The notes beneath the pieces were generated by a model. It ran no database searches. It had not been told where the DNA came from and was given only the letters and a program-made list of their open reading frames with translations. The translations under genes were made by a program, and so were the position numbers. DNA of 64,000 nucleotides from an uncultured bacterium (GTDB taxonomy: Bacteria > Chloroflexota > UBA5177 > JANWHV01), in NCBI GenBank assembly GCA_963827235.1, contig CAWHAE010000009.1, positions 1,232,239 through 1,296,238 on the forward strand. The letters are read 5' to 3'. This document shows positions 9,085 through 29,697 of this stretch, one piece after another (position 1 is the stretch's first letter; every line of letters starts with the position of its first letter).

Positions 9085-9146
9085 TCGAGGCAGTCCTCTG
9101 CGCGGTGAGCTCCGGGTAGAGGCTAGATGGGCAAGAGGAGGAGCTT

Positions 9147-10103
9147 ATGGCCAATCGACCGGACCTGGTTATCCGCTCGCTGCACGAGGATGAGCTTGCC
9201 GTCGCCGACAGTATCTACCGGCGGTCTTTCGGCACCTTCGTGGGCCTGCCCGACGCGGAGTCGTTCGGGGCCGACTCCGACTTGATCGGCAGCCGGTGGC
9301 GGGCCGATCCGGCGCGGGTGCTCGCCGCCGTGGACCACGGCAGCCTGGTCGGCACGTGCATCGCGACCAATTGGGGGAGCTTCGGCTTCTTCGGCCCGCT
9401 CACGGTGAGTCCGGAGCGATGGGATCAGGGGATAGGCAAGGCTCTGATGGGTGCCGTGATGCAGCACTTTGCCGCCTGGCATATCGGCCACCTGGGCCTT
9501 TTCACCTTCCCACACAGCACCAAGCACCTGCATCTCTACGAGCGATTCGGCTTTCACGCCCGCTTTCTCACTTCGATGATGTCGAAGACTCCCGAGCCCC
9601 GGGCCAACACAGACGCGCGGTGGTCCGACTTTGCCGCGCTGACGGCGGACGAGCGCGGAACGGCGCTGCAGGACTGCCGAGCGGTGGCCGATGCCGTGTT
9701 CGAAGGCCTCGACCTGACGGGGGAGATCGAGGCGGTGCACGCGCAACGGGCCGGCGACACGGTCCTGCTGCTCGATGGCGACCGGACGAGCGGATTTGCC
9801 GTCTGTCACTGTGGAGCCGGCACCGAGGCGACCGGAGGCGAGTGCTACGTCAAGTTTGGCGCGGTGCGTCCGGGCTCAGGGGCCGGATCGCGGTTCGCGC
9901 ACCTGCTGGACGCATGCGAGGCGTTCGCCGCCGCGCGCGGCCTGGGACGGGTGAGTGCCGGGGTCAACCTCGGCTGCGATGCGGCGTACGATGAGATGCG
10001 CCGACGGGGCTTTCGCATGGATTACACCGGAGTCGCCATGCAGCAGCCCAACGGGCCGGGCTACAACCGGAGCGATCGCCACGTGATCTCGGACTGGCGC
10101 TGA
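9147..10103 (+). CDS. GNAT family N-acetyltransferase (tandem GNAT-like domains)
   Basis: GAGGAG RBS; LTVSPERWDQGIGKALM acetyl-CoA motif, LYERFGF; second domain ends YDEMRRRGF. Confidence 0.88.
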   Translation: MANRPDLVIRSLHEDELAVADSIYRRSFGTFVGLPDAESFGADSDLIGSRWRADPARVLAAVDHGSLVGTCIATNWGSFGFFGPLTVSPERWDQGIGKALMGAVMQHFAAWHIGHLGLFTFPHSTKHLHLYERFGFHARFLTSMMSKTPEPRANTDARWSDFAALTADERGTALQDCRAVADAVFEGLDLTGEIEAVHAQRAGDTVLLLDGDRTSGFAVCHCGAGTEATGGECYVKFGAVRPGSGAGSRFAHLLDACEAFAAARGLGRVSAGVNLGCDAAYDEMRRRGFRMDYTGVAMQQPNGPGYNRSDRHVISDWR

Positions 10104-10355
10104 AGACTTCCCCGCACGCCGGCGCCGCAGGCAGACACCCAGCCGGCCACGCCTGCCGGAGCGTGGTCAGCGCCGCTCTCGCGCATTCGAATCTGCCGGT
10201 GGACACCTGCCGACGCCGGTGAGTCGTCCACGCGAGGTTGCCGGCCCGGCAGAGCCTTCCTGTACCATCAACGGTGTGGCGCGTGTCTCTCCGGTGCAGT
10301 AAGCTCTCGGCATCGGGGTGACGTTGCCGGAGTTGATGTCGTAAGGCATGCGTGG

Positions 10356-11669
10356 ATGGTCCGGGAAAGAGGGCGCGGCACGGTTATCGGGCGGCTGCCG
10401 AGCCTGCGCCGTGTTCTGGCTCAACGAGGTCGCCCGAGGGGACACCCCGTGGCGGTCCTTGCGCTTGCCGTGGGTGTGTTGGCGCTCCTGGTGTCGCTGC
10501 TGCTTGGCACCGGCCGGCAGCCCGGTCGAGCGGCATTCAGCACTGCCGGCTGCGTCTGGGGCGACCCGGCGCTGCAAGCCGAGGAGCAGCGTGCCGTGGC
10601 CGCCGTGTGGGCGGACAATCTCTCGCGGCGCTACGCCATCGTGCACCCTAGCCGAGCCTACGCCGGCGTGTGGCTGCGCGACTCGTTCTGGACTTTTCTC
10701 GCCGCCGGCGACGTGCATCTGGCCGGTCGCGCCCTGCGGCATTTTGCCATGCGCCAACAAGCAAATGGTCAGGTTCCGACCCAGTTCGTCGACTTCCTGC
10801 GGCAACCGCTCTATCGCGCCGACGAGTCGACGCTCCTTTACCTCATCTGGGCGGAGTGGCAGGCGCGCCACGACGGCTGGCTGCCGGCTCGCCCTTCCCT
10901 GGCGCGAGCGCTGGCCTACGTGCGGCAGCAGAGCCGCAGCGGCTGGTACGTGAGTCGAGCAGGCAGTTATGCCGACTGGTTCGACGGCTACCGGCTGCCG
11001 CAAGCCGATACGCTGAGCTATACTCAGGGGCTCTATGTCGATGCTCTGCTGGCCGCTCGGGCGGAGGGCCAGGACGTTCGCCCGGCCGAGATCGGGGCGG
11101 CCATCGCGGCCTACCGCGCCCTTGCCGATCCCCACGACGGCTACCTTCGCTTCAGCCGCTTGCACGCCTATCACGACGTCAGCGGGCTCACCGGGGAGTT
11201 CCTGGCCGAGTGGCTGTTTGGGCGAGATCTGCTACCGGATGCCACGGTCTCGGCTACTCTACGCACCCAGCCCCGCTATGGCAACGGCTTTCGCGTCGTG
11301 ACGAACGCCGATGGCACATACCTGAGTCCGCACCTGTTCGTGACCCATGAGTTCCCGGGTGACTATCAGAACGGCGGCTCATGGCTGCTCTACGACTACC
11401 TGGCCTTGGCGACCGGCTGCGCGCACCACGTCGGCGGAACGGGCGCCGCTTTAGCCGCGCGTCTGCGCCTGGAGTTTCGCCGTGGTGCCGTCCTGCACGA
11501 GTATCTGAACACCGATCCCACGTCTGCGTTGGCGGGCGGTGAGCCCTCGGTTCGCGACAACTTCTCCTGGGATACGTTCATCCTGCAGGTGGATCGGTTT
11601 CTGCACGCACAGGCCGCGCCGGTCGCGCGGTCCACGCCGGGCGGCGCCAGGGTGCGCCCCGCTCAGTGA
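10356..11669 (+). CDS. Putative membrane-anchored or secreted six-hairpin glycoside hydrolase (GDE/GH100-like)
   Basis: N-terminal hydrophobic helix; YAGVWLRDSFW, DESTLLY, ADWFD, GDYQNGGSW motifs typical of (alpha/alpha)6 glycosidases; exact start uncertain. Confidence 0.65.
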   Translation: MVRERGRGTVIGRLPSLRRVLAQRGRPRGHPVAVLALAVGVLALLVSLLLGTGRQPGRAAFSTAGCVWGDPALQAEEQRAVAAVWADNLSRRYAIVHPSRAYAGVWLRDSFWTFLAAGDVHLAGRALRHFAMRQQANGQVPTQFVDFLRQPLYRADESTLLYLIWAEWQARHDGWLPARPSLARALAYVRQQSRSGWYVSRAGSYADWFDGYRLPQADTLSYTQGLYVDALLAARAEGQDVRPAEIGAAIAAYRALADPHDGYLRFSRLHAYHDVSGLTGEFLAEWLFGRDLLPDATVSATLRTQPRYGNGFRVVTNADGTYLSPHLFVTHEFPGDYQNGGSWLLYDYLALATGCAHHVGGTGAALAARLRLEFRRGAVLHEYLNTDPTSALAGGEPSVRDNFSWDTFILQVDRFLHAQAAPVARSTPGGARVRPAQ

Positions 11670-12939
11670 CGGGGATACAGGAGCGTAACGTCACCAGCAC
11701 CAGGAGCGCATTGCGCAGCAGGATACTTGCCATGAACAGCGGGTGGCGCGGTAGCCGGACGAGGCTGTGATCGAGGGTATAGGCATAGGGGTAGATCACG
11801 AGCGTCAGAGCGGCGAGCAGCAGCCAGCGAAGGCGCAGTCCGTCCACGTAGGCTGCCAGCGGGAAGAGCCACAGGAAGTACTGTGGGCTGAGCAGCTTGC
11901 TCGTGCACAGAACGGTGAGCAGCAGCTGGATAGCGAGCTGCTGCGCCGTTTCCTTGCCCCGTGCCGCCCGCCAGCAGACGAAGAGCGTTCCGGCGAGGAG
12001 CAGCAGCGTCGAGACGCCGGCGGCGAAGCTCGACCATGGCCCTTCGACGTTGACCGAGTGATAGGTGAGCCGGACGCTGGCGTGTCCGCTCGCGTTGCCG
12101 GCGAGCCAGAGCAGCGATCCGGCAACGGACTCGATCTGGGGCGGGCGCGCGGCGTTGTAGTGCAGTGGAGCCAGAAACCCACCGGGATTGAGCGCCAGAA
12201 ACGGCAGCGCGCCTGCCAACACGACCAGCACGAACAGCAGCAATTCGCGTAGCGGCACTCGACCGCTCGAGCGCCACTGGAAGATGGCCAGCACAGGCAC
12301 GAGCAGACCTGGGTAGAGCTTGAGCAACGTCGCCGCGCCCAGCAGCACGTAGGCAGCGCCGTACCGCGATCGCTCGACCAGCACCAGAGCGCCGAGCACC
12401 AGCACACCCGGTATGAGGTCATAGCGTTCCAGGGTAGTGCCCCAGCCGCCGATCAGCACGTACGCGCCGCAGGCCACTGCACAGAGGAACAAGCGCCGGC
12501 GGACAAGGAAGCCGACCGCGCCGGCCAGGACCAGGGCAACGAGCACCATGTACGCCACGGGGTACGAGGCGCCGGGCCACAGCAGCGGCAACGAGAACCA
12601 CAGCAGAGCCGGAGCCGGGTATTCGCGCGGCATGGTGTGGAAGGAGTTCGGGATAGATGTCCAGAACAGCCAGCGATGGTCGGCACAGTAGCGCATGAGC
12701 GGAGCGTCGTGGAGCGCCGCCGTTCCGCGCCAGAAGCCGCGGGCGTAGCACTCGTAGGCGAATACGTCGTCATTGGGAATCATGCCGCCGCGCGTATGCA
12801 GGTAGGTGAAGTCGGCGCCGAGGGCGATGGCAAGCAGGACAAGCACCACGGCGCCGGCGGCAAAGCGCGGCACCGGCAATCGGACCCCAGCGAGCCCGCG
12901 GCGATCCACGTTACGCCAGCGCCGGAGCGCCGGCTTCAC
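11578..12939 (-). CDS. GT87-like (GT-C) polyprenyl-phosphate-sugar dependent glycosyltransferase
   Basis: Polytopic membrane protein; likely GTG 12939 overlapping the upstream TGA; DVFAY, PREYP, RYDLIP, LKLYP, RPPQIES, SKLLSPQYFLW. Confidence 0.8.
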   Translation of the reverse strand: MKPALRRWRNVDRRGLAGVRLPVPRFAAGAVVLVLLAIALGADFTYLHTRGGMIPNDDVFAYECYARGFWRGTAALHDAPLMRYCADHRWLFWTSIPNSFHTMPREYPAPALLWFSLPLLWPGASYPVAYMVLVALVLAGAVGFLVRRRLFLCAVACGAYVLIGGWGTTLERYDLIPGVLVLGALVLVERSRYGAAYVLLGAATLLKLYPGLLVPVLAIFQWRSSGRVPLRELLLFVLVVLAGALPFLALNPGGFLAPLHYNAARPPQIESVAGSLLWLAGNASGHASVRLTYHSVNVEGPWSSFAAGVSTLLLLAGTLFVCWRAARGKETAQQLAIQLLLTVLCTSKLLSPQYFLWLFPLAAYVDGLRLRWLLLAALTLVIYPYAYTLDHSLVRLPRHPLFMASILLRNALLVLVTLRSCIPVTERGAPWRRPAWTARPARPVRAETDPPAG

Positions 12940-18764: not shown

Positions 18765-19282
18765 GGCCGTTGTCCGTATCTATCCAGAAGAGGCAGAGAC
18801 GACTGATGGGCATTGGTATACCGCTCGCGCCAGCGCGCGAGTGTGGCCTCGAACTCGGCGGTTGTGAAATCGCAGTAGTCGAGCAGCTCCCCGAGGCGGG
18901 CGCGAGCCGGCTCGTCGTCCGGTGCCAGTGCGGCCAGCCCGCGCTCGGCTACGCGACGCATGACCACGGTGGCCTCGAGACTGGCTCTGATGCCGCGACC
19001 CCATGTGTCCGCGGTGACCCGATAGTAATCGCGCCGGTCGCCGGGAAAGCTCACGCGCTCGACCAGGGCGCTGCTCACGCTGACCCGTACGTTGGTCGAA
19101 ATCGACGATCGCGCGACGCCCAGAGTATTGGCCATCTCATCCAGGGTGAGCGGCCGGTCGGCCAATATCAGCAGACCGAGCACGCGGCCGCCGATGCGCG
19201 CGAGGCCGTACTGTCCAAAGAACAGCCCCATGTCCTCGATGAACTGTAGTTTTCCGGGCGAGAGCTGAATGACGCTGTCCAT
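18761..19282 (-). CDS. GbsR/MarR family transcriptional regulator
   Basis: FIEDMG..GLARIGGRVLGLL..LTLDEMANTLGVARSSISTNVR..PGDRRDYY. Confidence 0.9.
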
Positions 19283-19330
19283 ACGGCACTTTCTCCGTCG
19301 CTTCGACGCCGCACATCGGGTCCGACAGTC

Positions 19331-19365
19331 ATGCTACTCTCGACGGTTCCGTCAGTCAAGACTGA
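19331..19365 (-). promoter_or_regulatory. Sigma70-type promoter with overlapping palindromic operator
   Basis: Minus strand TTGACT (19359-19354)-N17-TAGCAT (19336-19331); palindrome TCAGTC-AA-GACTGA (19352-19365) covers the -35. Confidence 0.7.
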
Positions 19366-19433
19366 AATATCAGACGACAGCCGCGGCGACTTGCTTCTCT
19401 CGAATGCGGCAGGCGGAGCCGTACGGCGAGCTT

Positions 19434-19991
19434 CTAGCGCTTCTGGCCGGTCGCCGGGCTGGTCAGCGCGTTGTGTGCCCGGTTGAGGCGGGCCATCATC
19501 ATCTCGGCCTCGGCGCGCAGCTCGGGAGGCCCGTCCATGAAGCGGTCTGGATGCCAGACGCGCGAAAGAAGCCGGTAGCGACGCCGGATGTCGTCGCTGC
19601 TGGCTCCCGGGCGGAGGCCGAGGATCACCCACGGGCTATCCACGGCGGGCGCGGCGGTCTGCCCACGTTGGCGCGGAGCTCCCTGGAAGCCCGGCGGCGG
19701 TATCTGCTGGCGCGGGTCGGGGCGGTATCTTGGCGGCACGCTCTGCTGGTACGCGGGTGCCGCCGGCTGCCGCTTGCGCTGCTCACCAGCCACGGCCTGC
19801 GCCTCCCGTTTGAGGCGATCGAGTCGTGTCCGCTCCTTCACCACCTGATCGCGAAGCCAGAGCAGCTCGGAGCGCGCATCCTCGATCGACCGGTTGACCG
19901 CGTCGAGGTCGTCTTGTTGCTCCGGCGTGATATGAGGTGCGGCTGCGGAGCGCAGGGATTCTTGAGCGGCACGCCTGTTGCGACCAAACAC
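19434..19991 (-). CDS. J-domain protein (coiled coil + Pro/Gln linker + C-terminal J domain)
   Basis: PWVILGL..GASSDDIRRRYRLLSRVWHPDRF..MARLNRAH with intact HPD. Confidence 0.88.
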   Translation of the reverse strand: MFGRNRRAAQESLRSAAAPHITPEQQDDLDAVNRSIEDARSELLWLRDQVVKERTRLDRLKREAQAVAGEQRKRQPAAPAYQQSVPPRYRPDPRQQIPPPGFQGAPRQRGQTAAPAVDSPWVILGLRPGASSDDIRRRYRLLSRVWHPDRFMDGPPELRAEAEMMMARLNRAHNALTSPATGQKR

Positions 19992-20238
19992 GTTCGAAGC
20001 AATTCCTCGAATCGGTAATCATCAAGGAGCCATGGTCAGTGACACGGGCCTCCCGCACGTCTGCCGCCACCCATGGCCCGGATCACAGGCGTATCCCGCT
20101 GCTAACAGTATCGCACAGCTTACGTCTTCCCGGAGCCGGTCGCTTGCTTTCGGGTACCCTGGAGTCGCACGACCTTTGAGTCCATGCAGCCGTCCGAGCC
20201 AGGACGCGCACCGCTGCGACCCTGTGAAGGAGTAAACG

Positions 20239-20847
20239 TTGGGCTCGCTTGAGTGGATGGATGCCAAGCAGGACAAGCCGGAGGGTGCGCGCTTGGGCTG
20301 GACGGTGCTCGAGACCCGCTATCCGCTTCGCTCCCCGTGGCTTACCCTGCGCGAGGATCGCGTGCGGATCGCCGGCCACGGCGAGATCGTCTTCACCTAC
20401 AGCGAGGCGACGCCCGCCGTCTACGTGGTGCCGATCACCAGGGCAGGCGACATGCTCTTGATCCGGCAGTACCGCTATCCCGTGGATCGCTGGTCGCTCG
20501 AAGTGCCGGCCGGCGGCACGCACGACTTTCCGGGCGTGCCGCTGGACCAGGTGGCGCGAGCAGAGCTTGAGGAGGAGGTAGGAGCCGTGTGCGACGAGCT
20601 CGTGCCGGTAGCAGCGTTCCCTCTGCACGCCGCCAAGAGCGCGCAGCTTGGCCAGACGTTTCTCGCCACGGGCGTGGAGCTGAGCGCGACGCCCCGGCCG
20701 GCGGAAACAGAGTTGATCACGCTGCATGCGACTCCGGTCGCCGACGCCTATCACATGCTGCACGCCGGCGAGATCTTCGATTGCCAGAGCGCCATGGCAT
20801 TGCTGGTATGTGAGCCCCTTTTGCGGCAGCGCGGTCTGCTCGGCTAA
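20239..20847 (+). CDS. NUDIX hydrolase (ADP-ribose pyrophosphatase-like)
   Basis: AAGGAG RBS before TTG; LIRQYRYPV..SLEVPAGG..ARAELEEEVG. Confidence 0.9.
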   Translation: MGSLEWMDAKQDKPEGARLGWTVLETRYPLRSPWLTLREDRVRIAGHGEIVFTYSEATPAVYVVPITRAGDMLLIRQYRYPVDRWSLEVPAGGTHDFPGVPLDQVARAELEEEVGAVCDELVPVAAFPLHAAKSAQLGQTFLATGVELSATPRPAETELITLHATPVADAYHMLHAGEIFDCQSAMALLVCEPLLRQRGLLG

Positions 20848-21747
20848 ATGGAGATTGCTGTTACCGGCGCACGCGGGTACATCGGCAGGCATCTCGTGGC
20901 CCGGCTGGTGGCCGGGGGCGCGAGGCCCAGGTGCCTCGTGCGGCCGGGCGCTGACCTGGCGGTGCTTCCGACCGCGCAGATCGAGGTGGTGCGAGGAGAC
21001 GTAACCGACGCGCGGTCGCTACCGGCGCTGGTAGAAGGCGTGGACTACGTGATCCACTGCGCGTCGATCGTGGCGAACGTCAAGCAGACCCGGCGCGACG
21101 CGTATCGATTGACGAATGTGGAAGGTACCGCCAGCCTCGTGGCGGCTGCCCAGGTGGCGGGCGTGCGCCGCTTCATCCACCTGGGAGGCATGAACACGGT
21201 ACCCGGCGCGCCCGGTTCGTATATGCGCACGCGGTACGAGGCCGAGCAGCGGGTCGAGAGCGGCGGCGTGCCGTACGCTATCCTGCAACCGTCCATCCTG
21301 TTCGGCGACGGATCGCCGTTTTTCAGCGCTCTGGCCGGCCTGGTGCGGATAGCGCCGATCGTTCCCGTGCCGGGCAACGGCAGGATGCGCTTGCAGCCGA
21401 TCTGGGTCGGAGATGTGGTCACGTGCCTGGAAGGACTGCTGGTCGACGACCACGCCGACGAGACAGTGCCGGTGGGCGGCCCTGCCGCCTACTCCTACGA
21501 TCGGCTCCTCGACACGATCATCACAGCAGCGGGGAAACGGCGCCTGAAGATGCACACGCCGCTACCGCTCATGCGTGCCGGCGCGCTGGTCATGCAGACC
21601 GTTCTGCCCAGGCCTCCAGTGACCACGGCGACGCTCGAGCTGTTCGCCGGGGGTGCCGACAACGTGACGCGGCTCGACGCCGTGGTCGATCGCTTTGGCT
21701 TCGAGCCCCGGTCGCTCGAGGAGCACGCGCGGGTGAACGACCTCTGA
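20848..21747 (+). CDS. Atypical SDR / NDUFA9-like NAD(P)-binding protein
   Basis: VTGARGYIG, NVEGT, AGVRRFIH, PSILFG, LQPIWVGDV. Confidence 0.88.
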   Translation: MEIAVTGARGYIGRHLVARLVAGGARPRCLVRPGADLAVLPTAQIEVVRGDVTDARSLPALVEGVDYVIHCASIVANVKQTRRDAYRLTNVEGTASLVAAAQVAGVRRFIHLGGMNTVPGAPGSYMRTRYEAEQRVESGGVPYAILQPSILFGDGSPFFSALAGLVRIAPIVPVPGNGRMRLQPIWVGDVVTCLEGLLVDDHADETVPVGGPAAYSYDRLLDTIITAAGKRRLKMHTPLPLMRAGALVMQTVLPRPPVTTATLELFAGGADNVTRLDAVVDRFGFEPRSLEEHARVNDL

Positions 21748-21964
21748 GGGCTCCTGTAGTAGCACCTACCGCGCCGCCCGATGGAGCAGGTGCTCGGCAC
21801 TGTCGAGCAGTAGGTGCAGCGGCTGCACTGCGCGACCGTGCGAAGGGCATGCACCCAAGTCGAAGGCGCGTGAGGCGGGTCCTGGCAGGCGGGTACAAGA
21901 TCTGTGCGGGAGCCGGCAGCGGCTATATTGACAGAATGGACTATGTCCCTCGCCCAGACGCGCC

Positions 21965-21994
21965 CGCATTCGCAGCACCAGGGTTGCGAATGCG
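21965..21994. promoter_or_regulatory. Inverted repeat upstream of the glycyl-radical operon
   Basis: CGCATTCGCA-N10-TGCGAATGCG perfect 10-bp arms; TTGACA at 21928-21933. Confidence 0.4.
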
Positions 21995-22031
21995 TGAGAG
22001 CCGAGGCAGTGGGCGAAGCGAGTGAGGTAGA

Positions 22032-23060
22032 GTGTTGCTGATGCCGCTACGAATCGGAGTAATCGGGACAGGGCTGGCGTTTCGAGAGCTCCACCTTCCC
22101 TGCGTGGCGGAGCTCAGGGAAAAGCTGCGTATCGCGGCAGTGGCGAATAGCACGCCTGCTTCGGCAGCGGCAGGGGCAGGGGCCGTCGCGGAGGCCACCG
22201 GCGTGCTTCCCGACGCGTGCGAGAGCGTCGAGCAGCTTCTGGACCGGCCCGACATCGGCGTTGTCCTGATAGCGGTGCCGATTCACCTCACTGCTGGCTA
22301 CGTGCGGCAGGCATTGCTGCATGGAAAGGCGGTCTTTACCGAGAAACCGCTCGCGGATGACCTGGCCGACGCACACAGCCTGATTGAGCTGGCGCGGCGG
22401 ATGGGCCTGCTGCTCTTCGTGGCGGAGAACTTCCGCTACCAGCGCCAATATCGACAGCTTGGCGTGCTGGCGCGCTCGGGCCTGATCGGGCAACCAGTCC
22501 TGTTTCGCTTGAACGACCTGCACTTCACCTCGCCGCAATCGAAGTACGCCGGCACTGCGTGGCGGCAGCAAGGCGCACACGCGGGCGGTTATCTGCTCGA
22601 CGGCGGACCCCACACCATGGCCGGTGTGCGCTCGGTGGTGACCAGCCGGGTCACCGCGGTACACGGGATGACGGCGTCGTTCCACCCGGAGTTTCTGGCT
22701 CAGCAGCACGACACGCTGCTGTTGCACCTGACCTTCGAAGACGGCATGATCGGCGACGTGGGCTTGGGCTACGGCGCCGCGGATCCTGAAGGGCGCCGGC
22801 CGAAGATCTACGGACCCCAGGGCACGCTGATGATGTTGCGAGATCGCATCGAGCTCTGGACGCCTGGCTCGGCGGAGCCGGCGCAGCAATTCCCGCTGGA
22901 CCTCAACGGCCCCGGCTTCAGAGAGGAGTGGCTTGATTTCTGCGGCGCGGCCGTCGAGCACAAACCCCTGGCCGGCACGCCGGAGGACGCCGTTGCGGAT
23001 CTGGAGATCATACTGGCCGGCATAGAATCGGCCCGCACGGGTGAGGTGGTGCATCTCTAG
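22032..23060 (+). CDS. Gfo/Idh/MocA family sugar oxidoreductase
   Basis: RIGVIGTG, AVPIHL, VFTEKPLA, VAENFRY, WR..GGYLLDGGPH. Confidence 0.93.
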   Translation: MLLMPLRIGVIGTGLAFRELHLPCVAELREKLRIAAVANSTPASAAAGAGAVAEATGVLPDACESVEQLLDRPDIGVVLIAVPIHLTAGYVRQALLHGKAVFTEKPLADDLADAHSLIELARRMGLLLFVAENFRYQRQYRQLGVLARSGLIGQPVLFRLNDLHFTSPQSKYAGTAWRQQGAHAGGYLLDGGPHTMAGVRSVVTSRVTAVHGMTASFHPEFLAQQHDTLLLHLTFEDGMIGDVGLGYGAADPEGRRPKIYGPQGTLMMLRDRIELWTPGSAEPAQQFPLDLNGPGFREEWLDFCGAAVEHKPLAGTPEDAVADLEIILAGIESARTGEVVHL

Positions 23061-23072
23061 GAGGGCAGGAGG

Positions 23073-24968
23073 CTGGATACCTGGGTCATAGGGGTCGATC
23101 TCGGCGGCACGAAGACTGAAGTCGCGCTCGTGGATCCACGGAACAGGATCGCGGGCCGCCTGCGCATGGCCACGAACCCTTCGGAGGGTGCCCACAGCAT
23201 CGTCGAGCGGATTGCCCGGTGCGTCGAGGGCCTGACCGGCCTCTTGCCCATGGACGAGCATATCGCCGCGCTCGGCATCTGCTGTCCCGGTCCCGTGGAT
23301 CAGGAGAGCGGCAACCTGTGTGATCCGCCCAACCTGGCCGGCCTGCACTATGCGCCGCTCCGTCAGCTGCTCGCGACACGCCTGCAGCTGCCCGTTAGCC
23401 TCGAGCACGACGCGAGAGCGGCAGCGCTGGGCGAATTCTACTACGGTTCCGGACGCGGCGAGCTGAGCATGGTCTATGTCGTGGTCGGTACCGGCGTGGG
23501 CGCGGCAATCATCGTCGACGGCAAGCTGTTCCGCGGGCCTTACAACTCCGCTGGTGAGATCGGCCACGTGGCGCTGGATCGGGACGGCGACATCTGCTCA
23601 TGCGGCAACCGGGGCTGCGTGGAGACGTTTCTCAGCGGCCCCTGGCTGGCTCGCCGATTCGCGCGCGCGGCGAACGGCCACGTCACCGATCCCGGCGCGG
23701 CGGCGATCACCGGCGAGGCCGTGGTGGAGCTCGCCGGACGGGGAGACGCCTTGGCACGGCGCGTCATGGACGAGGCCGGCGCGGCACTGGGCACCGCCGT
23801 GGCAACCATGTCGATGGTGCTCAGCGTCGATCTCTATGTGATTGGCGGCAGCGTGGCGAAGGCGGGCGATCTGCTTCTCGAGCCGGCGCGGCGCGAAGTC
23901 TCCCGGCACTGCTTCCGATCCGTAAGCTGCGAGATTGGCATCGTGCCGGCTGAGCTCGGCGACGACGGCCCCATTCTTGGCTGCGCGTGGCTGGCGCGTC
24001 AGCTACGGCATGGGCACGGCGCTCACGGCGGCGGTAGCATGCCGAGACGGCTGACGCACTCCGAACAGACCCGGCTCGAACAGGTTGAAGGGATGGTATT
24101 CGACATCCAGCGTTTCTCGCTGCACGACGGTGCGGGACTGCGCACCAACGTGTTCTTCAAAGGCTGCGCGATGCGCTGTCCGTGGTGCGCCAACCCCGAA
24201 TCGCAGCATCGCGAGCCGGAGCTGTGGTATTCGGCGCAGCGGTGTATCGACTGCGGCCAATTCTCGCCTGCCTGCCGAGACTGCAAAGGACGGAACGGAG
24301 CAGCGGTGGGGCTCACCGGAATGCCTGACCGGGTGGCGAGGTGCCCGACCGGCGCGCTCCGGGTGGTCGGGGAGCGCCGGACCGCGGCGGATATCCTGGC
24401 CGAGGTGCTGCGCGACGTGCCTTTCTACGAAGGCGGTGGCGGCATGACGTTGACCGGAGGCGAGCCGGCATTCCAGCCGCGGCTGGCAGAGGCGCTGCTC
24501 CGCCTTGCCAGGCATCATCAGATCGCGACGGCGGTCGAGACGAGCGGGCACACGCGCTGGCGCGTGGTGGAGCGCCTGCTGCCGTACGTGGACGAAGTAC
24601 TGTTCGACCTGAAGCACGTGGATGGCGCGATACATCGGGCAGCCACCGGTGTCGATACCGAGCTGATACTTGCCAATCTGCACCGGTTGGCGACTCTGCA
24701 CGCGCCACTGACCGTGCGAGTGCCGCTGATTCCCGGCTTCAACACCGACGAAACGAGCCTGAGCGCAATCGCGGACTGCGTGCGAGCCCTGGATGGACCG
24801 CCGAGACCCGTGCACCTGCTACCCTACCACACGCTGGGTCGGGCGAAATACGGTGCCCTCAATCGGCAGTATCCATGGGAAGGGCACGATCGCCTGACGG
24901 ATACGCAAATCGCCGCATGCCGGGCGGTATTCGACTCGTGCGGCCTCTCCGTGAGCGTCGGCGGCTGA
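23073..24968 (+). CDS. Fusion: ROK-family sugar kinase + glycyl-radical enzyme activating protein (radical SAM)
   Basis: Conserved WVIGVDLGGTK lies upstream of the ORF-track start, implying a CTG start at 23073 (AGGAGG 8 nt upstream). ROK motifs HDARAAALGE, GTGVG, GEIGH, CSCGNRGCVE; then without a stop FDIQRFSLHDGAGLRT..KGCAMRCPWCANPES (CxxxCxxC), TLTGGEP, FDLKH, RVPLIPG, LLPYH. Confidence 0.9.
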   Translation: MDTWVIGVDLGGTKTEVALVDPRNRIAGRLRMATNPSEGAHSIVERIARCVEGLTGLLPMDEHIAALGICCPGPVDQESGNLCDPPNLAGLHYAPLRQLLATRLQLPVSLEHDARAAALGEFYYGSGRGELSMVYVVVGTGVGAAIIVDGKLFRGPYNSAGEIGHVALDRDGDICSCGNRGCVETFLSGPWLARRFARAANGHVTDPGAAAITGEAVVELAGRGDALARRVMDEAGAALGTAVATMSMVLSVDLYVIGGSVAKAGDLLLEPARREVSRHCFRSVSCEIGIVPAELGDDGPILGCAWLARQLRHGHGAHGGGSMPRRLTHSEQTRLEQVEGMVFDIQRFSLHDGAGLRTNVFFKGCAMRCPWCANPESQHREPELWYSAQRCIDCGQFSPACRDCKGRNGAAVGLTGMPDRVARCPTGALRVVGERRTAADILAEVLRDVPFYEGGGGMTLTGGEPAFQPRLAEALLRLARHHQIATAVETSGHTRWRVVERLLPYVDEVLFDLKHVDGAIHRAATGVDTELILANLHRLATLHAPLTVRVPLIPGFNTDETSLSAIADCVRALDGPPRPVHLLPYHTLGRAKYGALNRQYPWEGHDRLTDTQIAACRAVFDSCGLSVSVGG

Positions 24969-24983
24969 GATGGGAGGTGCAGT

Positions 24984-27431
24984 GTGTCCGTGCTTGTAGG
25001 CGAGCTGGGCATTCCGTATTTGCGCCAACACCCGGAGGCCGCCTTTCCCGACGATTCGCAGCTGGCCGGCGTGGCGTCCGAGCGCTGCGCCCGCCTGAAG
25101 ACGCGGCTCTTCGCGGGCGAGCGCGAGATCGACTGTGAGCGCGCGCGCCACACCACCGAAGCCTACCGTGCCACCGAAGGTGAAGCCATGCCCATCCGCC
25201 GCGCCAAGATGCTGCTGCATCTCGTCCAGCGGTTGAGCATCGCCATACATCCCGACGAGCTGATCGTGGGCAATCGTTCGCTCAAGCCGCGCATGGGCGT
25301 GATCGCGCCGGAGGGCGCGGTCGACTGGGTCGACCGGGAGCTCGACATCCTGCCGGCGCGACCCCAAGATCGCTTTGCCGTTCGGCCCGAGCAGGTGCGC
25401 GAGCTGCGCGAGCAGATCTTCCCGTATTGGCGCGGCCGGACGCTGGAAGACATGGTGGCTGGGCGTGTGCCGGATGACGTCCGGGCGGCGGTAGAGGCCA
25501 AGGCCTTCAGTCTGAACCAGACGGACCACGCGCAGGGGCATATCCTGCCCGACGTTGCCGGCTGGCTGCGTCTCGGCGTGGGTGGCCTGCGCGCGCGGGT
25601 ACAGGCGTGCCGGCAGCAACAGGGGGCGCGGCCGGCGGAGCAACAGACCTTCTACGAGGCCGCGGACATCGCCCTGGACGCGGCTGCCGTGTTGATGCGG
25701 CGCTACGGGGAGCTTGCCCGGCAGGAAGCACGGTCGAGCACCTCACCGGCCCGCGAGCAGGAGTTGTCGCGGATCGCCGAGCACTGCGAGCGGCTCAGCG
25801 AGCACCCGGCGCGGAGCTTCCGGGAGGCGCTGCAGGCCGTCTGGTTCCTCTTCGTGCTGCTGCAGATCGAGTCCAACGCCAGCAGCTTCTCACCAGGCCG
25901 CTTCGATCAGTACATGCTGCCGTACCTGGAGGCAGACCTGCAGGCAGGCACGCTGTCGCTGGCCGAGGCGCAGGAGCTGCTGGAGTGCCTCTGGCTCAAG
26001 TTCAACGAAATCGTCTTGCTCCGCAGCAGCGCCAGCGCCCGGTACTTCGCCGGCTTCCCGATCGGGTTCAACGTTATCCTGGGCGGCCAGCTGCCCGGAG
26101 GGGTCGACGCCACGAACTTTCTCAGCTACATGTGCCTGCGGGCGCAGTCCGACCTCGGTTTAACCCAGCCCAACCTATCCGTTCGTGTGTACGATAAGAG
26201 CCCACAGGCGTTCCTGCTCGCGGCGGCCCGCGTGATCGGCAAGGGGAGCGGCATGCCGCAGGTCTTCAACGACGACGTGATCGTTCCCGGGCAGATCAAT
26301 CGCGGCATCGCACCCGACGATGCCGTGAACTACGCGGTCGTGGGCTGCGTGGAGCTCTCGACACCCGGCAAGGCGCTCGGCTGGAGCGATGCCTCCATGT
26401 TCAATCTGACCCGCGTGCTGGAACTGACGCTGTTCGGCGGCAAGGATCCGCGGAGCGGGATCCAGGCCGGCCTGCCCACGCCGCCCCTCGACGAAATGGG
26501 CTCGATGGACGACGTGGAGGAGGCATACGACCGCCAGCTCGTCCGCTTCGTGGACCTGATGGTAGAGGGCTGCAACGTCGTGGACCGGCTGCACGCGGAG
26601 ATACTACCGTCGCCGTTCCTGTCCCTGCTGATCGAGGACTGCATCGGGCGTGGCCTGGACGTGACGGCCGGCGGGGCTACCTACAACTTCAGCGGGGTGC
26701 AGGGAGTGCAGATTGCCAATGTGGCCGACAGTCTCGCCGCCGTTCGAGCAGCGGTGTTCGAGCAGAAGTGGCTGACGGGCTCCGAGCTGCTCACCACGCT
26801 GCGGCGCAACTTCCAGGATGACGAGGTGCTGCGCCAGCGCCTGATCAACCGCGTGCCGAAGTACGGGAACGACGACGATCGAGTGGACCGGTTGGCGCGG
26901 AAGTGGGCGCGGCGCTACTGTGGCCTGGTCGAGCAGCACCCGAACGTGCGCGGGGGCATGTATCAGCCGGGCTTCTACACCGTCTCCGCGCACGTGCCCA
27001 TGGGCGCCAACGTGGGCGCAATGCCGGACGGCCGCCGGTCCGGCGAGCCGCTGGCCGACGGCGGCATCTCGCCCATGACCGGCCGCGATGAGAAGGGGCC
27101 TACGGCCGTGCTGCGGTCGGTCGGCAGCATGGACCTGGCGCTGGCCTCCAACGGCACGCTGCTGAACATGAAGTTCTCGCCGCAGTTCTTCGATGGAGAG
27201 CACGCCACGGCGCAATTCGCGGCGCTGCTGCGTGGCTTCTGCCGCCTGCGCATTCCGCACGTGCAATTCAACGTCGTCTCGGCCACCACACTGCGTGCAG
27301 CCCAGGCGAGCCCTGCCGAGTATCGATCGCTGGTCGTGCGGGTGGCCGGGTACAGCGCGTACTTCACCGAGCTGGACAGGGACCTGCAAGACGAGATCAT
27401 CCGCCGGACCGAATTCGGCCGGCAGATGTGA
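24984..27431 (+). CDS. pflD: Glycyl radical enzyme, PflD-like (not pyruvate formate-lyase)
   Basis: GGAGG RBS; single-Cys loop VVGCVEL (about 26343-26354); Gly loop VVRVAGYSAYF (about 27339-27356); blocks RPQDRF, NQTD.AQGH, ESNASS, RS..SARYFAGFP, YNFSGVQG, YTVSAHVP match E. coli PflD as I recall it. Confidence 0.9.
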   Translation: MSVLVGELGIPYLRQHPEAAFPDDSQLAGVASERCARLKTRLFAGEREIDCERARHTTEAYRATEGEAMPIRRAKMLLHLVQRLSIAIHPDELIVGNRSLKPRMGVIAPEGAVDWVDRELDILPARPQDRFAVRPEQVRELREQIFPYWRGRTLEDMVAGRVPDDVRAAVEAKAFSLNQTDHAQGHILPDVAGWLRLGVGGLRARVQACRQQQGARPAEQQTFYEAADIALDAAAVLMRRYGELARQEARSSTSPAREQELSRIAEHCERLSEHPARSFREALQAVWFLFVLLQIESNASSFSPGRFDQYMLPYLEADLQAGTLSLAEAQELLECLWLKFNEIVLLRSSASARYFAGFPIGFNVILGGQLPGGVDATNFLSYMCLRAQSDLGLTQPNLSVRVYDKSPQAFLLAAARVIGKGSGMPQVFNDDVIVPGQINRGIAPDDAVNYAVVGCVELSTPGKALGWSDASMFNLTRVLELTLFGGKDPRSGIQAGLPTPPLDEMGSMDDVEEAYDRQLVRFVDLMVEGCNVVDRLHAEILPSPFLSLLIEDCIGRGLDVTAGGATYNFSGVQGVQIANVADSLAAVRAAVFEQKWLTGSELLTTLRRNFQDDEVLRQRLINRVPKYGNDDDRVDRLARKWARRYCGLVEQHPNVRGGMYQPGFYTVSAHVPMGANVGAMPDGRRSGEPLADGGISPMTGRDEKGPTAVLRSVGSMDLALASNGTLLNMKFSPQFFDGEHATAQFAALLRGFCRLRIPHVQFNVVSATTLRAAQASPAEYRSLVVRVAGYSAYFTELDRDLQDEIIRRTEFGRQM

Positions 27432-27464
27432 GCATATCTACCTGACGGCGGCCGCCGGATGCAG

Positions 27465-28136
27465 TCACCCGCCCTGGTGCGCGAGATTTGCCACCGCCGA
27501 GTTGAACTCGCTCACGCTGCTCGGATGCAGCGTCTGGGAGAACGTGCCGCCGAGAAAGCCGGTGAAGATCGACCATGGGAGGCCGCTCACGGTGAGCGTG
27601 CCATTGTCGTTGCGAATGCCGGTGAACGACATCGAGCTCGAGCTGCCGGTCCCCGTGAAACCGTAGCTACCGCTGTTGTCGAGGCCGCTGAACTGGAACG
27701 ACTTCGCGCTGTGGGCTTGGTAGTTATCGGCGGTGAGGATACGCCCTTGCTTGATGAAGCCGTTCGTCTCCGTCCAGTCCATGTACAGCACGTAGCTGTA
27801 CTTGTCGATCAGGAATGAGGCGAGGTAGCTGCGGGCGCCGTTGTCGGAAGACGACGGCGTAGGCTGCGCGGTGGCCGCCCTCTGTAGCTGCTCGATGATC
27901 TGCTGTTGCCGAGCCTCCACGGTCTGGGCCGCCACGACGAGCTGCCCCTCGCGCGCCACCTGGGTGGTCAAGGCGGCAACGCTGCCATCCGTCGCGTTTG
28001 CCTGGTGACCGCCGTTCGATCGCATCGACTGCACGAGCGCGAAAGCAAGTCCGATGGTCACGACGGTAAGCACGATGCAGAGTGTTCCCAGCGAAAATGC
28101 CGGGCTTCGTCGCTTGGATGTATTGACTCTTGACAT
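27465..28136 (-). CDS. Hypothetical single-TM membrane-anchored protein (coiled coil + beta-rich C-terminal domain)
   Basis: Likely ATG 28136; TM helix LCIVLTVVTIGLAFALV; Gln-rich helix; Ser/Gly/Thr-rich C-terminal domain. Confidence 0.65.
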   Translation of the reverse strand: MSRVNTSKRRSPAFSLGTLCIVLTVVTIGLAFALVQSMRSNGGHQANATDGSVAALTTQVAREGQLVVAAQTVEARQQQIIEQLQRAATAQPTPSSSDNGARSYLASFLIDKYSYVLYMDWTETNGFIKQGRILTADNYQAHSAKSFQFSGLDNSGSYGFTGTGSSSSMSFTGIRNDNGTLTVSGLPWSIFTGFLGGTFSQTLHPSSVSEFNSAVANLAHQGG

Positions 28137-28155
28137 GGGCACTCCCTGGCCGGGC

Positions 28156-29697
28156 TTACGGCCCCGGACGCGACCCGCGGGGTTCCGCATCGTGACCGGC
28201 GCGCGTGGCCGGTCCAGGGTTCACGGCCGCTGCGGTCGCAGCATCGTCGGGCGCGGATCGCTGCGCGTTGACGAACTCTTGAATCACGACGTGGCAGAGA
28301 GCCACGATCGGCACGGCGAAGAAGGCACCGGGCAGGCCGGCCAGCGGCAGTCCGACCAGCGCCGCTGCCATCGCCTCCAGTGGATGAATGCGAAGATGGT
28401 GCGCTTGCAGCCGGGGTCCCACCACGTTGGTGATGATCTGCTCCCCGATCAGCAGCCATGCCAGGTAGACAATCGGTTTCGGCAAGGGCGTGAAGATGAG
28501 GGCGACGGCGAGCGGCGGGATCGGCAGCACTACCGGGCCCAGTACGGGCACCAGCGAGAGCAGGAAGCTGCTGAAGAAGATCACGATGGCATAGGGAATA
28601 CCCAGTATGACGGCGCCGGTCGCATCGGCCAGACCGGCAAGCAAGCCGAGCAGGATCTGCGTGCGCACGTAGCGCCCGAGGATCTCATCCAGGCTGGCCA
28701 TCGCGCGCACGGCCTGTGGCCGGGACTTGCGTGGTGCGAGGTAGGTGATCCAGCGCGCGAATCGAGCACCGTCCTTCAAGAAATAGATGGAGATGATGAA
28801 GATCAACACGACGTCGAGCAGCAGGTTTCCTGCCTGCAGGCCGATGTTGACCGCGTTGTTGAGCAGGGACGATATCTGATCGTTGATCGACTTCAACACC
28901 TGGCTGAACTTGTCGTGAAGATCCGCCGAGACGCCGCGCTGGTCGAGGTCGGCCTGGAGATTGAGCAGGAGCAGCGGTGTGGATGCCGCCTTCTGGTAGG
29001 TAGTATTGGCCTGGTTGAGCGCCTGGTCTGCCTGCAGGCGAAAGTGCGCGAGCCAGGCCGAGCTGAGCGCGGATTGAGCCGATCCGTAGGCGGCTTGCAC
29101 CTGGCGAGCACTTGCCAGGATGGGATTGGCATAGCTGGGGGGGATGGCCACCACGCCGTCCGGAGTCTGGTCCACCGTGAGTACCGATGCGTCGTGCACG
29201 AGCGTCGCCAGCGCCGACTCTGTGCTCCGGATTTGGTCGATGGAGACCGGGTGGCTGACGGCAATGGCGCTCTGCTGGGCGCTGACGTTCGTGAGCACCG
29301 CCGCATAGTCGTTCTTTACCGCGACGAGACGCACGAGGCTGCTCTTTGCAGGGTTTTCCAGATTCTTGATCAGATCCTTGGCTTCGGACACGAACGGGGT
29401 CAGGAGCAGAAAGCCGAAGCCCAGGGCGCAGGCAAACAGCAGGATGTAGGCACCGATCACGGCCGCCCAGTGCTTGCGCACCACGTGCTGGAGCAGGCGC
29501 ACGGCGGGCGCCATAAGGTAGGCCAGCAGCGCCCCGATCAGGAACATGTAGAGCACCGCTCGGAAGCGATCGAACAAGCCGAGCACGTCGCTCAGCAGCC
29601 CAAGCAGGGTCTGGGCGATCAGCAACACGGCCAGGACGATCAGTACGCGAATGAGGAGGCCGAGATTCTGCGGTTGATCCGGTTCCAACAGGTGCAA
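28156..29697 (-). CDS. AI-2E (PerM/TqsA) family transporter with a large soluble insertion
   Basis: AGGAGG RBS + TTG; [53 protein letters not shown]. Confidence 0.88.

What the first reader, a model, noticed from the sequence alone, without database searches (positions are those of the whole stretch)
23073..24968. ROK sugar kinase fused to a glycyl-radical activating enzyme
Seen: one open frame joins a complete ROK domain (GVDLGGT, HDA..ALGE, GEIGH, CxCGxxGCxE) through the linker RHGHGAHGGGSMPRR to a full radical-SAM GRE activase. The ROK domain has no N-terminal HTH, so it looks like a kinase rather than a repressor. Activases are normally stand-alone, and I do not know a characterised kinase-activase fusion. 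Inference: it could tie glycyl radical installation to substrate availability, or channel the phosphorylated sugar to the GRE.
Basis: partly seen in the sequence, partly recalled or inferred. Interest (0 to 1): 0.82.

Follow-up and report, generated by a model that had tools for sequence, protein, structure and literature searches.

The report
Sugar kinase fused to radical-enzyme activase
One gene really does join a sugar kinase to the enzyme that switches on a neighbouring glycyl radical enzyme, and the fusion is conserved in many uncultured bacteria, most likely because both halves serve the same anaerobic sugar-breakdown enzyme next door.

Summary
Window 23073-24968 (+) is one open frame with a complete ROK kinase domain (Pfam 4e-64), a variable, low-confidence linker, and a complete glycyl-radical-enzyme (GRE) activase (TIGR02494, 294 bits against a cut-off of 174).

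- **Start codon:** it is a CTG at 23073. The public gene call starts 31 codons later and loses the DxGGT loop.
- **Not an artefact:** 76 other protein clusters carry both domains, 68 of them full length. On a ROK-domain tree the fused forms make one clade of 65 rows plus at least one independent origin.
- **The neighbouring GRE** (24984-27431) is closest to E. coli PflD, the 1,5-anhydromannitol-6-phosphate ring-opening lyase. It is 49% identical, and PflD is the best solved-structure match.
- **Linkage:** ROK genes of this subfamily lie beside such GREs in 33 of 40 informative metagenome loci, fused or not.

My reading is that the kinase makes the phosphorylated substrate, the activase arms the GRE, and the fusion mainly secures co-production. 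Gating of activation by sugar is not shown. Docking support is weak (0.60 against controls of 0.00), and the AlphaFold2 pTM is 0.55. I found no paper on this architecture. It is a new variant of known kinds, of moderate interest.

The parts
22032..23060 (+). GFO/IDH/MocA NAD(P) oxidoreductase gene directly upstream. It ends 12 nt before the fusion gene and is a probable operon member.
   Evidence: Pfam GFO_IDH_MocA plus its C-terminal domains. The best solved relative is 1zh8 at 125 bits; 1,5-anhydrofructose reductase 2glx scores only 55 bits. The orthologue (77% identity) holds the same position in same-genus genome G001. GFO-family genes recur in 14 related loci.
23060..23072 (+). Purine-rich ribosome-binding region (GGAGGGCAGGAGG) before the CTG start.
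   Evidence: Read from the sequence. GGAGG at 23060-23064 lies 8 nt before CTG 23073. Its function is inferred.
23073..24968 (+). Fusion gene: ROK sugar kinase, linker, GRE activase. It has a CTG start and encodes 631 residues.
   Evidence: The CTG aligns with Met1 of the homologues. The public gene call begins at 23166.
23073..24011 (+). ROK kinase domain. DxGGT lies at 23097-23111, the catalytic Asp (EHD) at 23409-23411, ExGH at 23556-23567, and the zinc motif CxCGxxGC at 23595-23618.
   Evidence: Pfam ROK E 4.2e-64. TIGR00744 gives 192.8 bits, below its cut-off of 260. The best PDB matches are glucokinases. The motif residues are invariant in alignment A1.
24012..24071 (+). Linker (RHGHGAHGGGSMPRRLTHSE), Gly/His-rich.
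   Evidence: Length and sequence vary among the 27 fused homologues, and the second fused clade has about 20 extra residues. pLDDT is below 50 at residues 318-327. The Met at 24039 is not conserved.
24072..24965 (+). GRE activase domain (radical SAM). CX3CX2C lies at 24165-24188. The auxiliary insert has 5 Cys, 4 of them invariant. The GGGGMTLTGGEP motif is present.
   Evidence: TIGR02494 gives 293.7 bits against a cut-off of 174.35. C369, C373 and C376, and C395, C398, C405 and C428, are invariant. The domain is 41% identical to E. coli YbiY and 33% to PflC by tblastn. PflC likewise has a 4-Cys insert.
24984..27431 (+). PflD-like glycyl radical enzyme of 815 aa, starting 15 nt after the fusion gene. 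Cys loop GCVE at C455/E457 (nt 26346-26354); glycyl motif RVAGYS with G789 (nt 27348-27350).
   Evidence: Pfam PFL-like plus Gly_radical. TIGR01774 gives 867 bits against a cut-off of 678. The PflD model PRK09983 gives 862 bits, below its cut-off of 1109. The best PDB match is PflD 8yjo at 776 bits. Global identity is 49.4% to E. coli PflD and 39.3% to YbiW.
20239..21747 (+). NUDIX hydrolase (20239-20847) and NAD-dependent epimerase/SDR (20848-21747) upstream on the same strand. Operon membership is uncertain because a 285-nt gap precedes the GFO gene.
   Evidence: Pfam. Neither was found beside the fusion in other loci at E <= 1e-10.

Best explanation
The gene encodes a bifunctional protein. 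Its two halves are two different helpers of the glycyl radical enzyme (GRE) encoded 15 nt downstream.

- **N-terminal half:** an ATP-dependent ROK sugar kinase. I infer that it phosphorylates the imported sugar, most likely a 1,5-anhydrohexitol such as 1,5-anhydromannitol, to the 6-phosphate.
- **C-terminal half:** a radical-SAM activase. I infer that it installs the glycyl radical at G789 of the GRE.
- **The GRE:** a PflD-type enzyme. I infer that it opens the ring of the sugar phosphate to a 1-deoxy-ketose phosphate that feeds central metabolism.

In E. coli the PflD substrate arrives already phosphorylated through the Frw PTS. Here a kinase takes that role. The fusion arose from neighbouring operon genes. 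Its main effect is probably co-production and co-localisation of the kinase and the activase, not an obligatory allosteric link.

Shown here: the domain architecture, motif integrity, conservation of the fusion, and the ROK-GRE gene linkage. Inferred: the substrate identity, kinase activity, and why the fusion is kept.
For: **Architecture and intact motifs**. The window's protein departs from clade consensus at only 11 of 243 highly conserved columns. That lies within the 0-31 range of the 21 clade members, and most changes are conservative.

**The fusion is conserved.**
- 76 other clusters carry both domains, 68 of them at 91% or more of query coverage and 40-65% identity.
- The ROK-domain tree has 151 rows. 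The fused forms make one clade of 65 rows that includes the window (SH-aLRT 97), nested among unfused ROKs.
- A separate fused clade has 9 rows.
- The tree needs 3 changes of state, and well-supported branches force at least 2.

**The GRE is PflD-like.**
- The best PDB hit is PflD 8yjo (776 bits), ahead of glycerol dehydratase (647 bits).
- It is 49.4% identical to E. coli PflD and 39.3% to YbiW.
- It shares PflD's versions of the segments VVGCVELS, ESNASSxSxGRFDQYM, SARYFAGFP and YNFSGVQG, where YbiW differs.
- The function of PflD and YbiW is taken from review PMC13450708, passages read.

**Kinase-GRE linkage is independent of the fusion.**
- The ROK-only alignment returned 80 metagenome loci. 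Of these, 5 are fused with the GRE following, 25 have the GRE within 300 nt, and 3 have it within 10 kb.
- 7 loci have 3 kb or more on both flanks and no GRE. The other 40 have flanks too short to judge.
- L108 also pairs a YbiW-like GRE (62% identical to E. coli YbiW) with another ROK.

**Supporting context.**
- No fructose-type EIIC (PF02378) was found in the own genome, which is 95.9% complete. One HPr is present.
- Neighbours in related loci are sugar genes: sugar ABC and GlcU transporters; SorC, DeoR and LacI regulators; GFO (the best model for the recurring type is levoglucosan dehydrogenase, 273 bits, below its cut-off); GMC oxidoreductase; PfkB; SIS; HAD.
Against: - No substrate was tested. 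The GRE scores below NCBI's PflD equivalog cut-off (862 bits against 1109).
- I could not read the primary paper, so the substrate-binding residues were not checked.
- There is no FSA-type aldolase in the window. The only FSA-like hit in the genome is 29% identical and lies on contig C10.
- The ROK domain scores below the glucokinase subfamily cut-off (192.8 bits against 260). It has His where canonical ROK kinases have Asn before the catalytic Asp (EHD rather than END; the canonical form is seen in the second fused clade). Its sugar is therefore unknown.
- The start is a rare CTG. If translation began at GTG 23130 or ATG 23166, the kinase would lack its phosphate loop.
- In same-genus genome G001 the first 250 or so ROK residues are deleted, and the activase and GRE each carry a frameshift. 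The locus can decay, and it was not found in the other three same-genus genomes.
- ESMFold2 gave weak support for a ROK-activase interface. That would fit a tighter functional coupling than I assume.
Confidence: 0.6

Rival explanations
1. Gated activation. The ROK half docks on the activase half, and sugar or ATP occupancy controls radical installation. The GRE is then armed only when substrate is available. In a variant, ROK dimerisation presents two activase domains to the dimeric GRE.
For: - complex prediction for the ROK half against the activase half gave 'weak support': score 0.60, best of 3 controls 0.00.
- The tool's calibration: 58 of 80 solved complexes and 2 of 110 mismatched pairs reached the mark. 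At 0.60 or under, only 7 of those 80 solved complexes passed, and so did both mismatches that passed.
- The runs agree in at least 73% of contacts, and the partner's pLDDT is at least 86. My own alignment was used, so these counts hold only roughly.
- The fusion has been kept through divergence down to about 52% identity in one clade, and it arose at least twice.
[quoted passage not shown] That leaves room for a missing factor.
Against: - AlphaFold2 on the full length gives confident domains (mean pLDDT 83.7) but a pTM of 0.55 and a disordered linker.
- The linker is not conserved.
- Close relatives run the same gene set unfused, often with the activase gene not even nearby (12 of 13 loci).
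- No allosteric precedent for GRE activases appeared in the review's passages I searched.
Confidence: 0.17
2. The ROK half is no longer a working kinase in this genome. It would be a relic, or a solubility or dimerisation tag, because the start codon has changed to CTG and the locus is decaying in this genus.
For: - The start is a CTG and not an ATG.
- The public gene call omits the DxGGT loop.
- Same-genus genome G001 has lost ROK residues 1 to about 250 and carries frameshifts in the activase and the GRE.
- The locus was not found in 3 other same-genus genomes.
Against: - All catalytic and zinc-binding residues are intact.
- Only 5 of the window's 11 departures from the 243 conserved columns fall in the ROK half, and all 5 are conservative (R/K, F/Y, S/A, F/Y, S/G).
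- The 19 codons between the CTG and GTG 23130 encode the conserved WVIGVDLGGTK strand, and a GGAGG lies 8 nt upstream.
- CTG is an accepted, if rare, bacterial start codon (general knowledge).
Confidence: 0.1
3. The fusion is correct, but the pathway is not anhydrohexitol breakdown. The kinase and GRE would act on another sugar or polyol phosphate.
For: - The GRE is only 49% identical to PflD and scores below the equivalog cut-off.
- Glycerol and propanediol dehydratases score 642-647 bits, not far below PflD.
- The ROK sugar pocket differs from canonical kinases (EHD).
- Neighbours vary between loci.
Against: - PflD is clearly the best match in both libraries. In NCBIfam it scores 862 bits against 585 for the next equivalog.
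- PflD-specific segments around the Cys loop are shared.
- A kinase partner makes sense only for a phosphorylated substrate, as for PflD and YbiW.
Confidence: 0.13

Closest known systems
E. coli PflD-PflC with the Frw PTS ('anhydroglycolysis'; review PMC13450708, passages read)
   Same: - The GRE is 49% identical to PflD and has the same CxE Cys loop and glycyl motif.
- The activase is of the PflC/YbiY type with a short Cys insert.
- The substrate is expected to be a sugar 6-phosphate.
   Different: - No PTS genes lie nearby.
- A ROK kinase is present and is fused to the activase.
- There is no adjacent FSA aldolase or GldA.
- The gene order is activase before GRE.
ROK glucokinases (PDB 2qm1, 3vgk) and N-acetylmannosamine kinases
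   Same: - Full ROK fold and no HTH.
- DxGGT, the catalytic Asp, ExGH and the zinc CxCGxxGCxE motif are all present.
   Different: - It scores below the glucokinase subfamily cut-off.
- It has EHD in place of END.
- It carries a C-terminal radical-SAM domain.
- The subfamily is genomically tied to a GRE.
Unfused ROK / PflD-like GRE / activase loci in Chloroflexota and metagenomes (L003, L005, L107 and others)
   Same: The ROK subfamily is the same (45-63% identity), and so is the GRE subfamily (55-75%).
   Different: - The genes are separate.
- In 12 of 13 such loci no activase gene is nearby.
Earlier scan note e1-4053887: a YbiW-like GRE + activase + ROK kinase operon in a Bacteroidales genome
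   Same: A kinase-fed version of the anhydro-sugar GRE pathway. I saw a similar YbiW-like GRE + ROK pair in L108.
   Different: There the kinase is a separate gene and the GRE is of the YbiW type. Here it is of the PflD type and fused.

Membership tests
ROK family sugar kinase | ROK domain profile match | tested here: met
   PF00480 E 4.2e-64, 217 bits against a cut-off of 22.9, residues 9-314.
ROK family sugar kinase | Phosphate-1 loop DxGGT at the N-terminus | tested here: met
   D13, G15, T17 and K18 are invariant in 27 sequences. The loop is present only if translation starts at CTG 23073.
ROK family sugar kinase | Catalytic Asp, ExGH sugar motif, and zinc motif CxCGxxGCxE (motif definitions recalled) | tested here: met
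   D117, E166/G168/H169 and C179/C181/C186 are invariant. The residue before the Asp is His, not the canonical Asn.
ROK family sugar kinase | No N-terminal winged-helix DNA-binding domain (distinguishes kinase from repressor) | tested here: met
   An in-frame stop lies 4 codons before the start. Pfam shows no HTH.
ROK glucokinase subfamily (TIGR00744) | Score above the curated cut-off | tested here: not met
   192.8 bits against a cut-off of 260.35. I do not file it as a glucokinase.
ROK family sugar kinase | ATP-dependent sugar phosphorylation | not testable with these tools
   Needs an enzyme assay.
Glycyl-radical enzyme activating protein (TIGR02494) | Score above the curated cut-off, plus the CX3CX2C radical-SAM cluster motif | tested here: met
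   293.7 bits against a cut-off of 174.35. C369, C373 and C376 are invariant.
Glycyl-radical enzyme activating protein (TIGR02494) | Ferredoxin-like insert with eight Cys for two auxiliary clusters (as the review describes for most activases) | tested here: not met
   The insert has 5 Cys, of which 4 are invariant (C395, C398, C405, C428). That is enough for one cluster. E. coli PflC also has 4. The feature definition comes from PMC13450708, passage read.
Glycyl-radical enzyme activating protein (TIGR02494) | Encoded beside its GRE | tested here: met
   The GRE gene starts 15 nt downstream.
PflD (1,5-anhydromannitol-6-phosphate C-O lyase), for the neighbouring GRE | NCBIfam equivalog PRK09983 above its cut-off | tested here: not met
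   862.4 bits against a cut-off of 1109. It is still the best equivalog; the next is HypD at 585 bits. I call the GRE PflD-like and do not file it as PflD.
PflD (1,5-anhydromannitol-6-phosphate C-O lyase), for the neighbouring GRE | CxE Cys loop and C-terminal glycyl radical motif | tested here: met
   GCVE (C455/E457) and RVAGYS (G789) align with those of PflD.
PflD (1,5-anhydromannitol-6-phosphate C-O lyase), for the neighbouring GRE | Substrate- and phosphate-binding residues of the solved complex (8ID0) | not tested
   The primary paper is not held, and no coordinates were available. Only shared PflD-type segments were seen.
E. coli-type anhydroglycolysis operon | PTS uptake and phosphorylation, an FSA aldolase, and GldA beside the GRE | tested here: not met
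   None of these is in the window. No PF02378 EIIC was found in the genome. The only FSA-like hit is 29% identical and lies on another contig.

The most novel reading that the evidence does not exclude
The kinase half physically docks on the activase half and makes glycyl-radical installation depend on sugar or ATP occupancy, or presents two activases to the GRE dimer through ROK dimerisation. This would be the first substrate-sensing GRE activase. It would also hint at why PflD- and YbiW-type enzymes activate so poorly in vitro without such a partner.
Probability: 0.15. Interest if true: 0.8.

Novelty: new variant of a known kind. Interest (0 to 1): 0.52.

Why it matters
GRE activases are described as stand-alone radical-SAM proteins, with or without a ferredoxin-like insert. 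A review of mid-2026 contains neither 'fused' nor 'additional domain' in its text. A conserved kinase-activase fusion matters in three ways.

1. **It points to the substrate.** It acts as a 'Rosetta stone' indicating that this uncharacterised PflD-like GRE clade in Chloroflexota, Acidobacteriota and related metagenome bacteria uses a phosphorylated sugar.
2. **It extends the pathway.** It shows a kinase-fed, PTS-free version of the recently described anhydro-sugar radical pathway in environmental anaerobes.
3. **It gives a natural test construct.** It allows a test of whether substrate supply and radical installation are coupled, and it may ease expression of an activase class that performs poorly in vitro.

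If the fusion only secures co-expression, it is a useful annotation and pathway clue, not a new mechanism.

Tried and rejected
- **Assembly or read-through artefact:** rejected, because the fusion is conserved.
- **TAG read-through from the GFO gene:** that gene ends in the same frame 12 nt upstream. I rejected this because the two genes are in different frames in G001 and homologues start with Met at the CTG column.
- **Upstream GFO gene as a 1,5-anhydrofructose reductase orthologue:** not supported. 2glx scores only 55 bits against 125 for 1zh8.
- **Read check of the linker:** The look-up of sequencing runs listed 4 DNA runs, all with word shares of 0.09 or less, and no RNA holder. Laid contigs cover the start region and 23826-24029, but none spans 24029-24072.
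- **Promoter and terminator scan of 19000-28500:** counts are close to the shuffled expectation (2 against 0.9, and 4 against 3.4) and uninformative.
- **Rfam on the whole window:** 0 matches.
- **Primary paper on YbiW/PflD** (doi 10.1021/jacs.4c07718): not held. Residue-level substrate comparison was not done. Paper supplements are closed and may hold gene-neighbourhood tables that bear on the novelty claim.
- **Literature searches for the fusion** returned nothing relevant in their listings:
  - 'glycyl radical' + 'ROK family'
  - 'glycyl radical' + 'ROK' as whole words
  - 'anhydroglycolysis'
  - 'anhydromannitol' + 'kinase'
  - 'YbiW' + 'PflD' + 'kinase'
- **Earlier notes of this scan near this place:** none.
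Full report
**1. What is there**

- **The open frame.** The + strand frame that opens after the TAG at 23058-23060 runs without a stop to 24968.
- **Domains.** Pfam places a full ROK domain at residues 9-314 (E 4.2e-64) and a radical-SAM domain at 364-564. NCBIfam's GRE-activase model TIGR02494 covers residues 346-626 with 293.7 bits against a cut-off of 174.35. Residue numbers count from nt 23061.
- **Start codon.** The first canonical start codon in the frame (GTG 23130) lies downstream of the DLGGT phosphate loop. In an alignment of 27 fused homologues, every homologue starts M-x-x-W-V-I-G-V-D-L-G-G-T, and the Met column falls on the CTG at 23073. A GGAGG lies 8 nt upstream. The gene therefore most likely starts at CTG 23073.
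- **Public gene call.** It starts at ATG 23166 and loses the loop (P0002, 600 aa).
- **Reads.** Contigs from two other public runs carry the same start region (X1 with 0 differences, X4 with 1 difference at 23057). One contig reaches 24029 without gaps, but none spans the whole linker, and these runs may not be independent of the assembly.

**2. The fusion is real and old**

- **Database count.** Of the 120 best database clusters listed for the protein, 77 carry both Pfam domains. One of them is the window's own protein. 68 cover 91% or more of the query at 40-65% identity, and one source names them 'glycyl-radical enzyme activating protein/glucokinase-like ROK family protein'.
- **Invariant residues across the 27 aligned sequences**:
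  - D13, G15, T17, K18 (DxGGT)
  - D117 (catalytic Asp)
  - E166, G168, H169 (ExGH)
  - C179, C181, C186 (zinc site)
  - C369, C373, C376 (CX3CX2C) in the activase half
  - four Cys of the auxiliary insert
- **No sign of decay.** The window's copy departs from the clade consensus at 11 of 243 highly conserved columns, within the clade's range of 0-31.
- **Linker.** It varies in length and sequence.
- **Tree.** I built a tree of ROK domains with 151 rows: 75 fused, 57 unfused and 19 undecided.
  - Left out: L004 and L005 (distant ROKs), loci with fewer than 250 matched residues, and database proteins without long matches to both halves.
  - All but ten fused rows fall in one clade of 65 (SH-aLRT 97) that holds the window and is nested among unfused ROKs.
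  - A second fused clade of 9 rows lies outside that subfamily, and one long-branched fused row (P0061) stands alone.
  - The tree needs 3 changes, of which starred branches force at least 2.
- **Hosts.** Named hosts of fused genes are MAGs of Chloroflexota and Acidobacteriota (L001, L002).
- **In the window's own genus the locus is patchy.**
  - G001 keeps GFO (77%), activase (76%) and GRE (78%). It has lost ROK residues 1 to about 250 and carries one frameshift in each of the activase and the GRE.
  - The other three same-genus genomes gave no close match. That search included the unpublished genome G018, and no claim here rests on it.

**3. The neighbour and the pathway**

- **The GRE.** An 815-residue GRE starts 15 nt downstream.
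  - Its best solved relative is E. coli PflD (8yjo, 776 bits), ahead of 8id0 (674 bits) and glycerol dehydratase (647 bits).
  - Global identity is 49.4% to E. coli PflD and 39.3% to YbiW.
  - NCBIfam's PflD model is the best equivalog, at 862 bits, but stays below its cut-off of 1109.
  - The Cys loop (VVGCVELS) and the segments ESNASSxSxGRFDQYM, SARYFAGFP and YNFSGVQG follow PflD where YbiW differs.
- **What PflD and YbiW do.** A 2026 review (PMC13450708, passages read) states that they open the rings of 1,5-anhydromannitol-6-phosphate and 1,5-anhydroglucitol-6-phosphate to give 1-deoxy-fructose-6-phosphate. Aldolases then cleave that product.
- **E. coli context.** pflD-pflC lie among Frw PTS genes beside fsaB and gldA.
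- **Here.** There is no PTS gene or aldolase nearby. No PF02378-type EIIC was found in the 95.9%-complete genome, and a kinase sits in the operon instead.

**4. The kinase-GRE link does not depend on the fusion**

A scan of metagenome contigs with an alignment of stand-alone ROKs of this subfamily returned 80 loci:

| Arrangement | Loci |
|---|---|
| Fused ROK::activase followed by the GRE | 5 |
| PflD-like GRE (50% or more identical to the window's) within 300 nt of the ROK gene | 25 |
| GRE within 10 kb | 3 |
| 3 kb or more on both flanks and no GRE | 7 |
| Flanks too short to judge | 40 |

- Of 26 ROK-then-GRE loci (the 25 above plus L003), 13 have a complete GRE and at least 1.5 kb beyond it. 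Only one of these (L003: ROK, GRE, activase) holds an activase gene anywhere in the locus.
- Other arrangements also occur: ROK, activase, GRE as separate frames in L005, and ROK, GRE, ROK, activase in L004.
- L108 holds both a YbiW-like GRE with its own ROK and a PflD-like GRE with this ROK.
- Neighbouring families in these loci are sugar-related.

Together this makes the kinase the most faithful partner of this GRE clade. It supports the view that the kinase supplies the phosphorylated substrate.

**5. How the fusion works**

- **Most economical reading.** Two adjacent operon genes, both needed for GRE function, fused. The product is a kinase and an activase joined by a flexible tether.
- **AlphaFold2.** It folds both halves confidently (mean pLDDT 83.7) but gives a pTM of 0.55 and pLDDT below 50 for residues 318-327.
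- **Docking test.** ESMFold2 on the two halves gave 'weak support': 0.60 against 0.00 for the best of three controls.
  - The mark was reached by 58 of 80 solved complexes and 2 of 110 mismatches in the tool's calibration.
  - At 0.60 or under it was reached by only 7 of those 80 solved complexes, and by both mismatches that passed.
  - The runs share at least 73% of contacts, and the partner's pLDDT is at least 86. My own alignment was used.
- **Verdict on gating.** Channelling of product to the GRE is not what a kinase-activase fusion would achieve by itself.

**6. Comparison and novelty**

- The halves belong to known families: ROK kinases and PflC/YbiY-type GRE activases. The short 4-5 Cys insert is shared with E. 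coli PflC. The neighbour is PflD-like.
- What is new is the architecture and its setting, a kinase-fed, PTS-free version of the pathway.
- Five full-text searches and word searches within the 2026 GRE review found no description of a kinase-activase fusion. The primary YbiW/PflD paper and all supplements could not be read.
- I rate it a new variant of a known kind, of moderate interest.

Noticed in passing
L107, L108, L112, L120, L123, L124, L127, L128, L131, L142, L145, L151 (metagenome loci): In 12 of 13 unfused ROK-then-PflD-like-GRE loci with a complete GRE and at least 1.5 kb beyond it, no activase gene appears anywhere in the locus. This is unusual for GREs, whose activase is normally adjacent. 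The ROK gene sits where an activase would be expected.
   Followed up: partly
L094, L095, L097, L098, L001, L172, L173; own genome G000:C14:252640-257806: An E2-E3-E1 (alpha-beta fused) 2-oxoacid/acetoin-type dehydrogenase operon lies beside the ROK::activase-GRE genes, or beside activase-GRE, in seven related loci. The window's genome has a close orthologue (E1 76-77% identical) on another contig. My idea, untested: it cleaves 1-deoxy-fructose-6-phosphate, a methyl ketol, to acetyl-CoA and erythrose-4-phosphate in place of an FSA aldolase.
   Followed up: partly
window 24243-24347 (activase insert, residues 395-428): The ferredoxin-like insert of the activase keeps only four invariant Cys (CxxC-x6-C ... 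CP). That is enough for one auxiliary cluster, not the two described for most GRE activases. E. coli PflC shows the same reduction.
   Followed up: partly
L093 (G001:C8) 9101-12827: In the same-genus genome the ROK half is reduced to its last 66 or so residues. The activase and the GRE each carry one frameshift. This is either a decaying locus or MAG errors.
   Followed up: partly
G000:C9:169314-171923 and G000:C12:1078123-1081208: The genome holds two further GRE/activase pairs, only 26-31% identical to the window's GRE. It also holds about 14 further ROK-like matches.
   Followed up: no
L107, L124, L127, L128, L131 downstream of the GRE: A recurring gene set follows the unfused ROK-GRE pair: a GSU2086-family/SIS fusion, MtaA/URO-D-like proteins, a PfkB kinase and a HAD phosphatase. 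Its function is unknown.
   Followed up: no
protein P0102: One database protein of 477 aa carries ROK plus PFL-like Pfam domains. It is either a ROK-GRE read-through or a gene-call merge. I did not examine it.
   Followed up: no
window 21748-22031: A 285-nt gap lies between the SDR gene and the GFO gene. It holds no Rfam match and no convincing promoter or terminator.
   Followed up: partly
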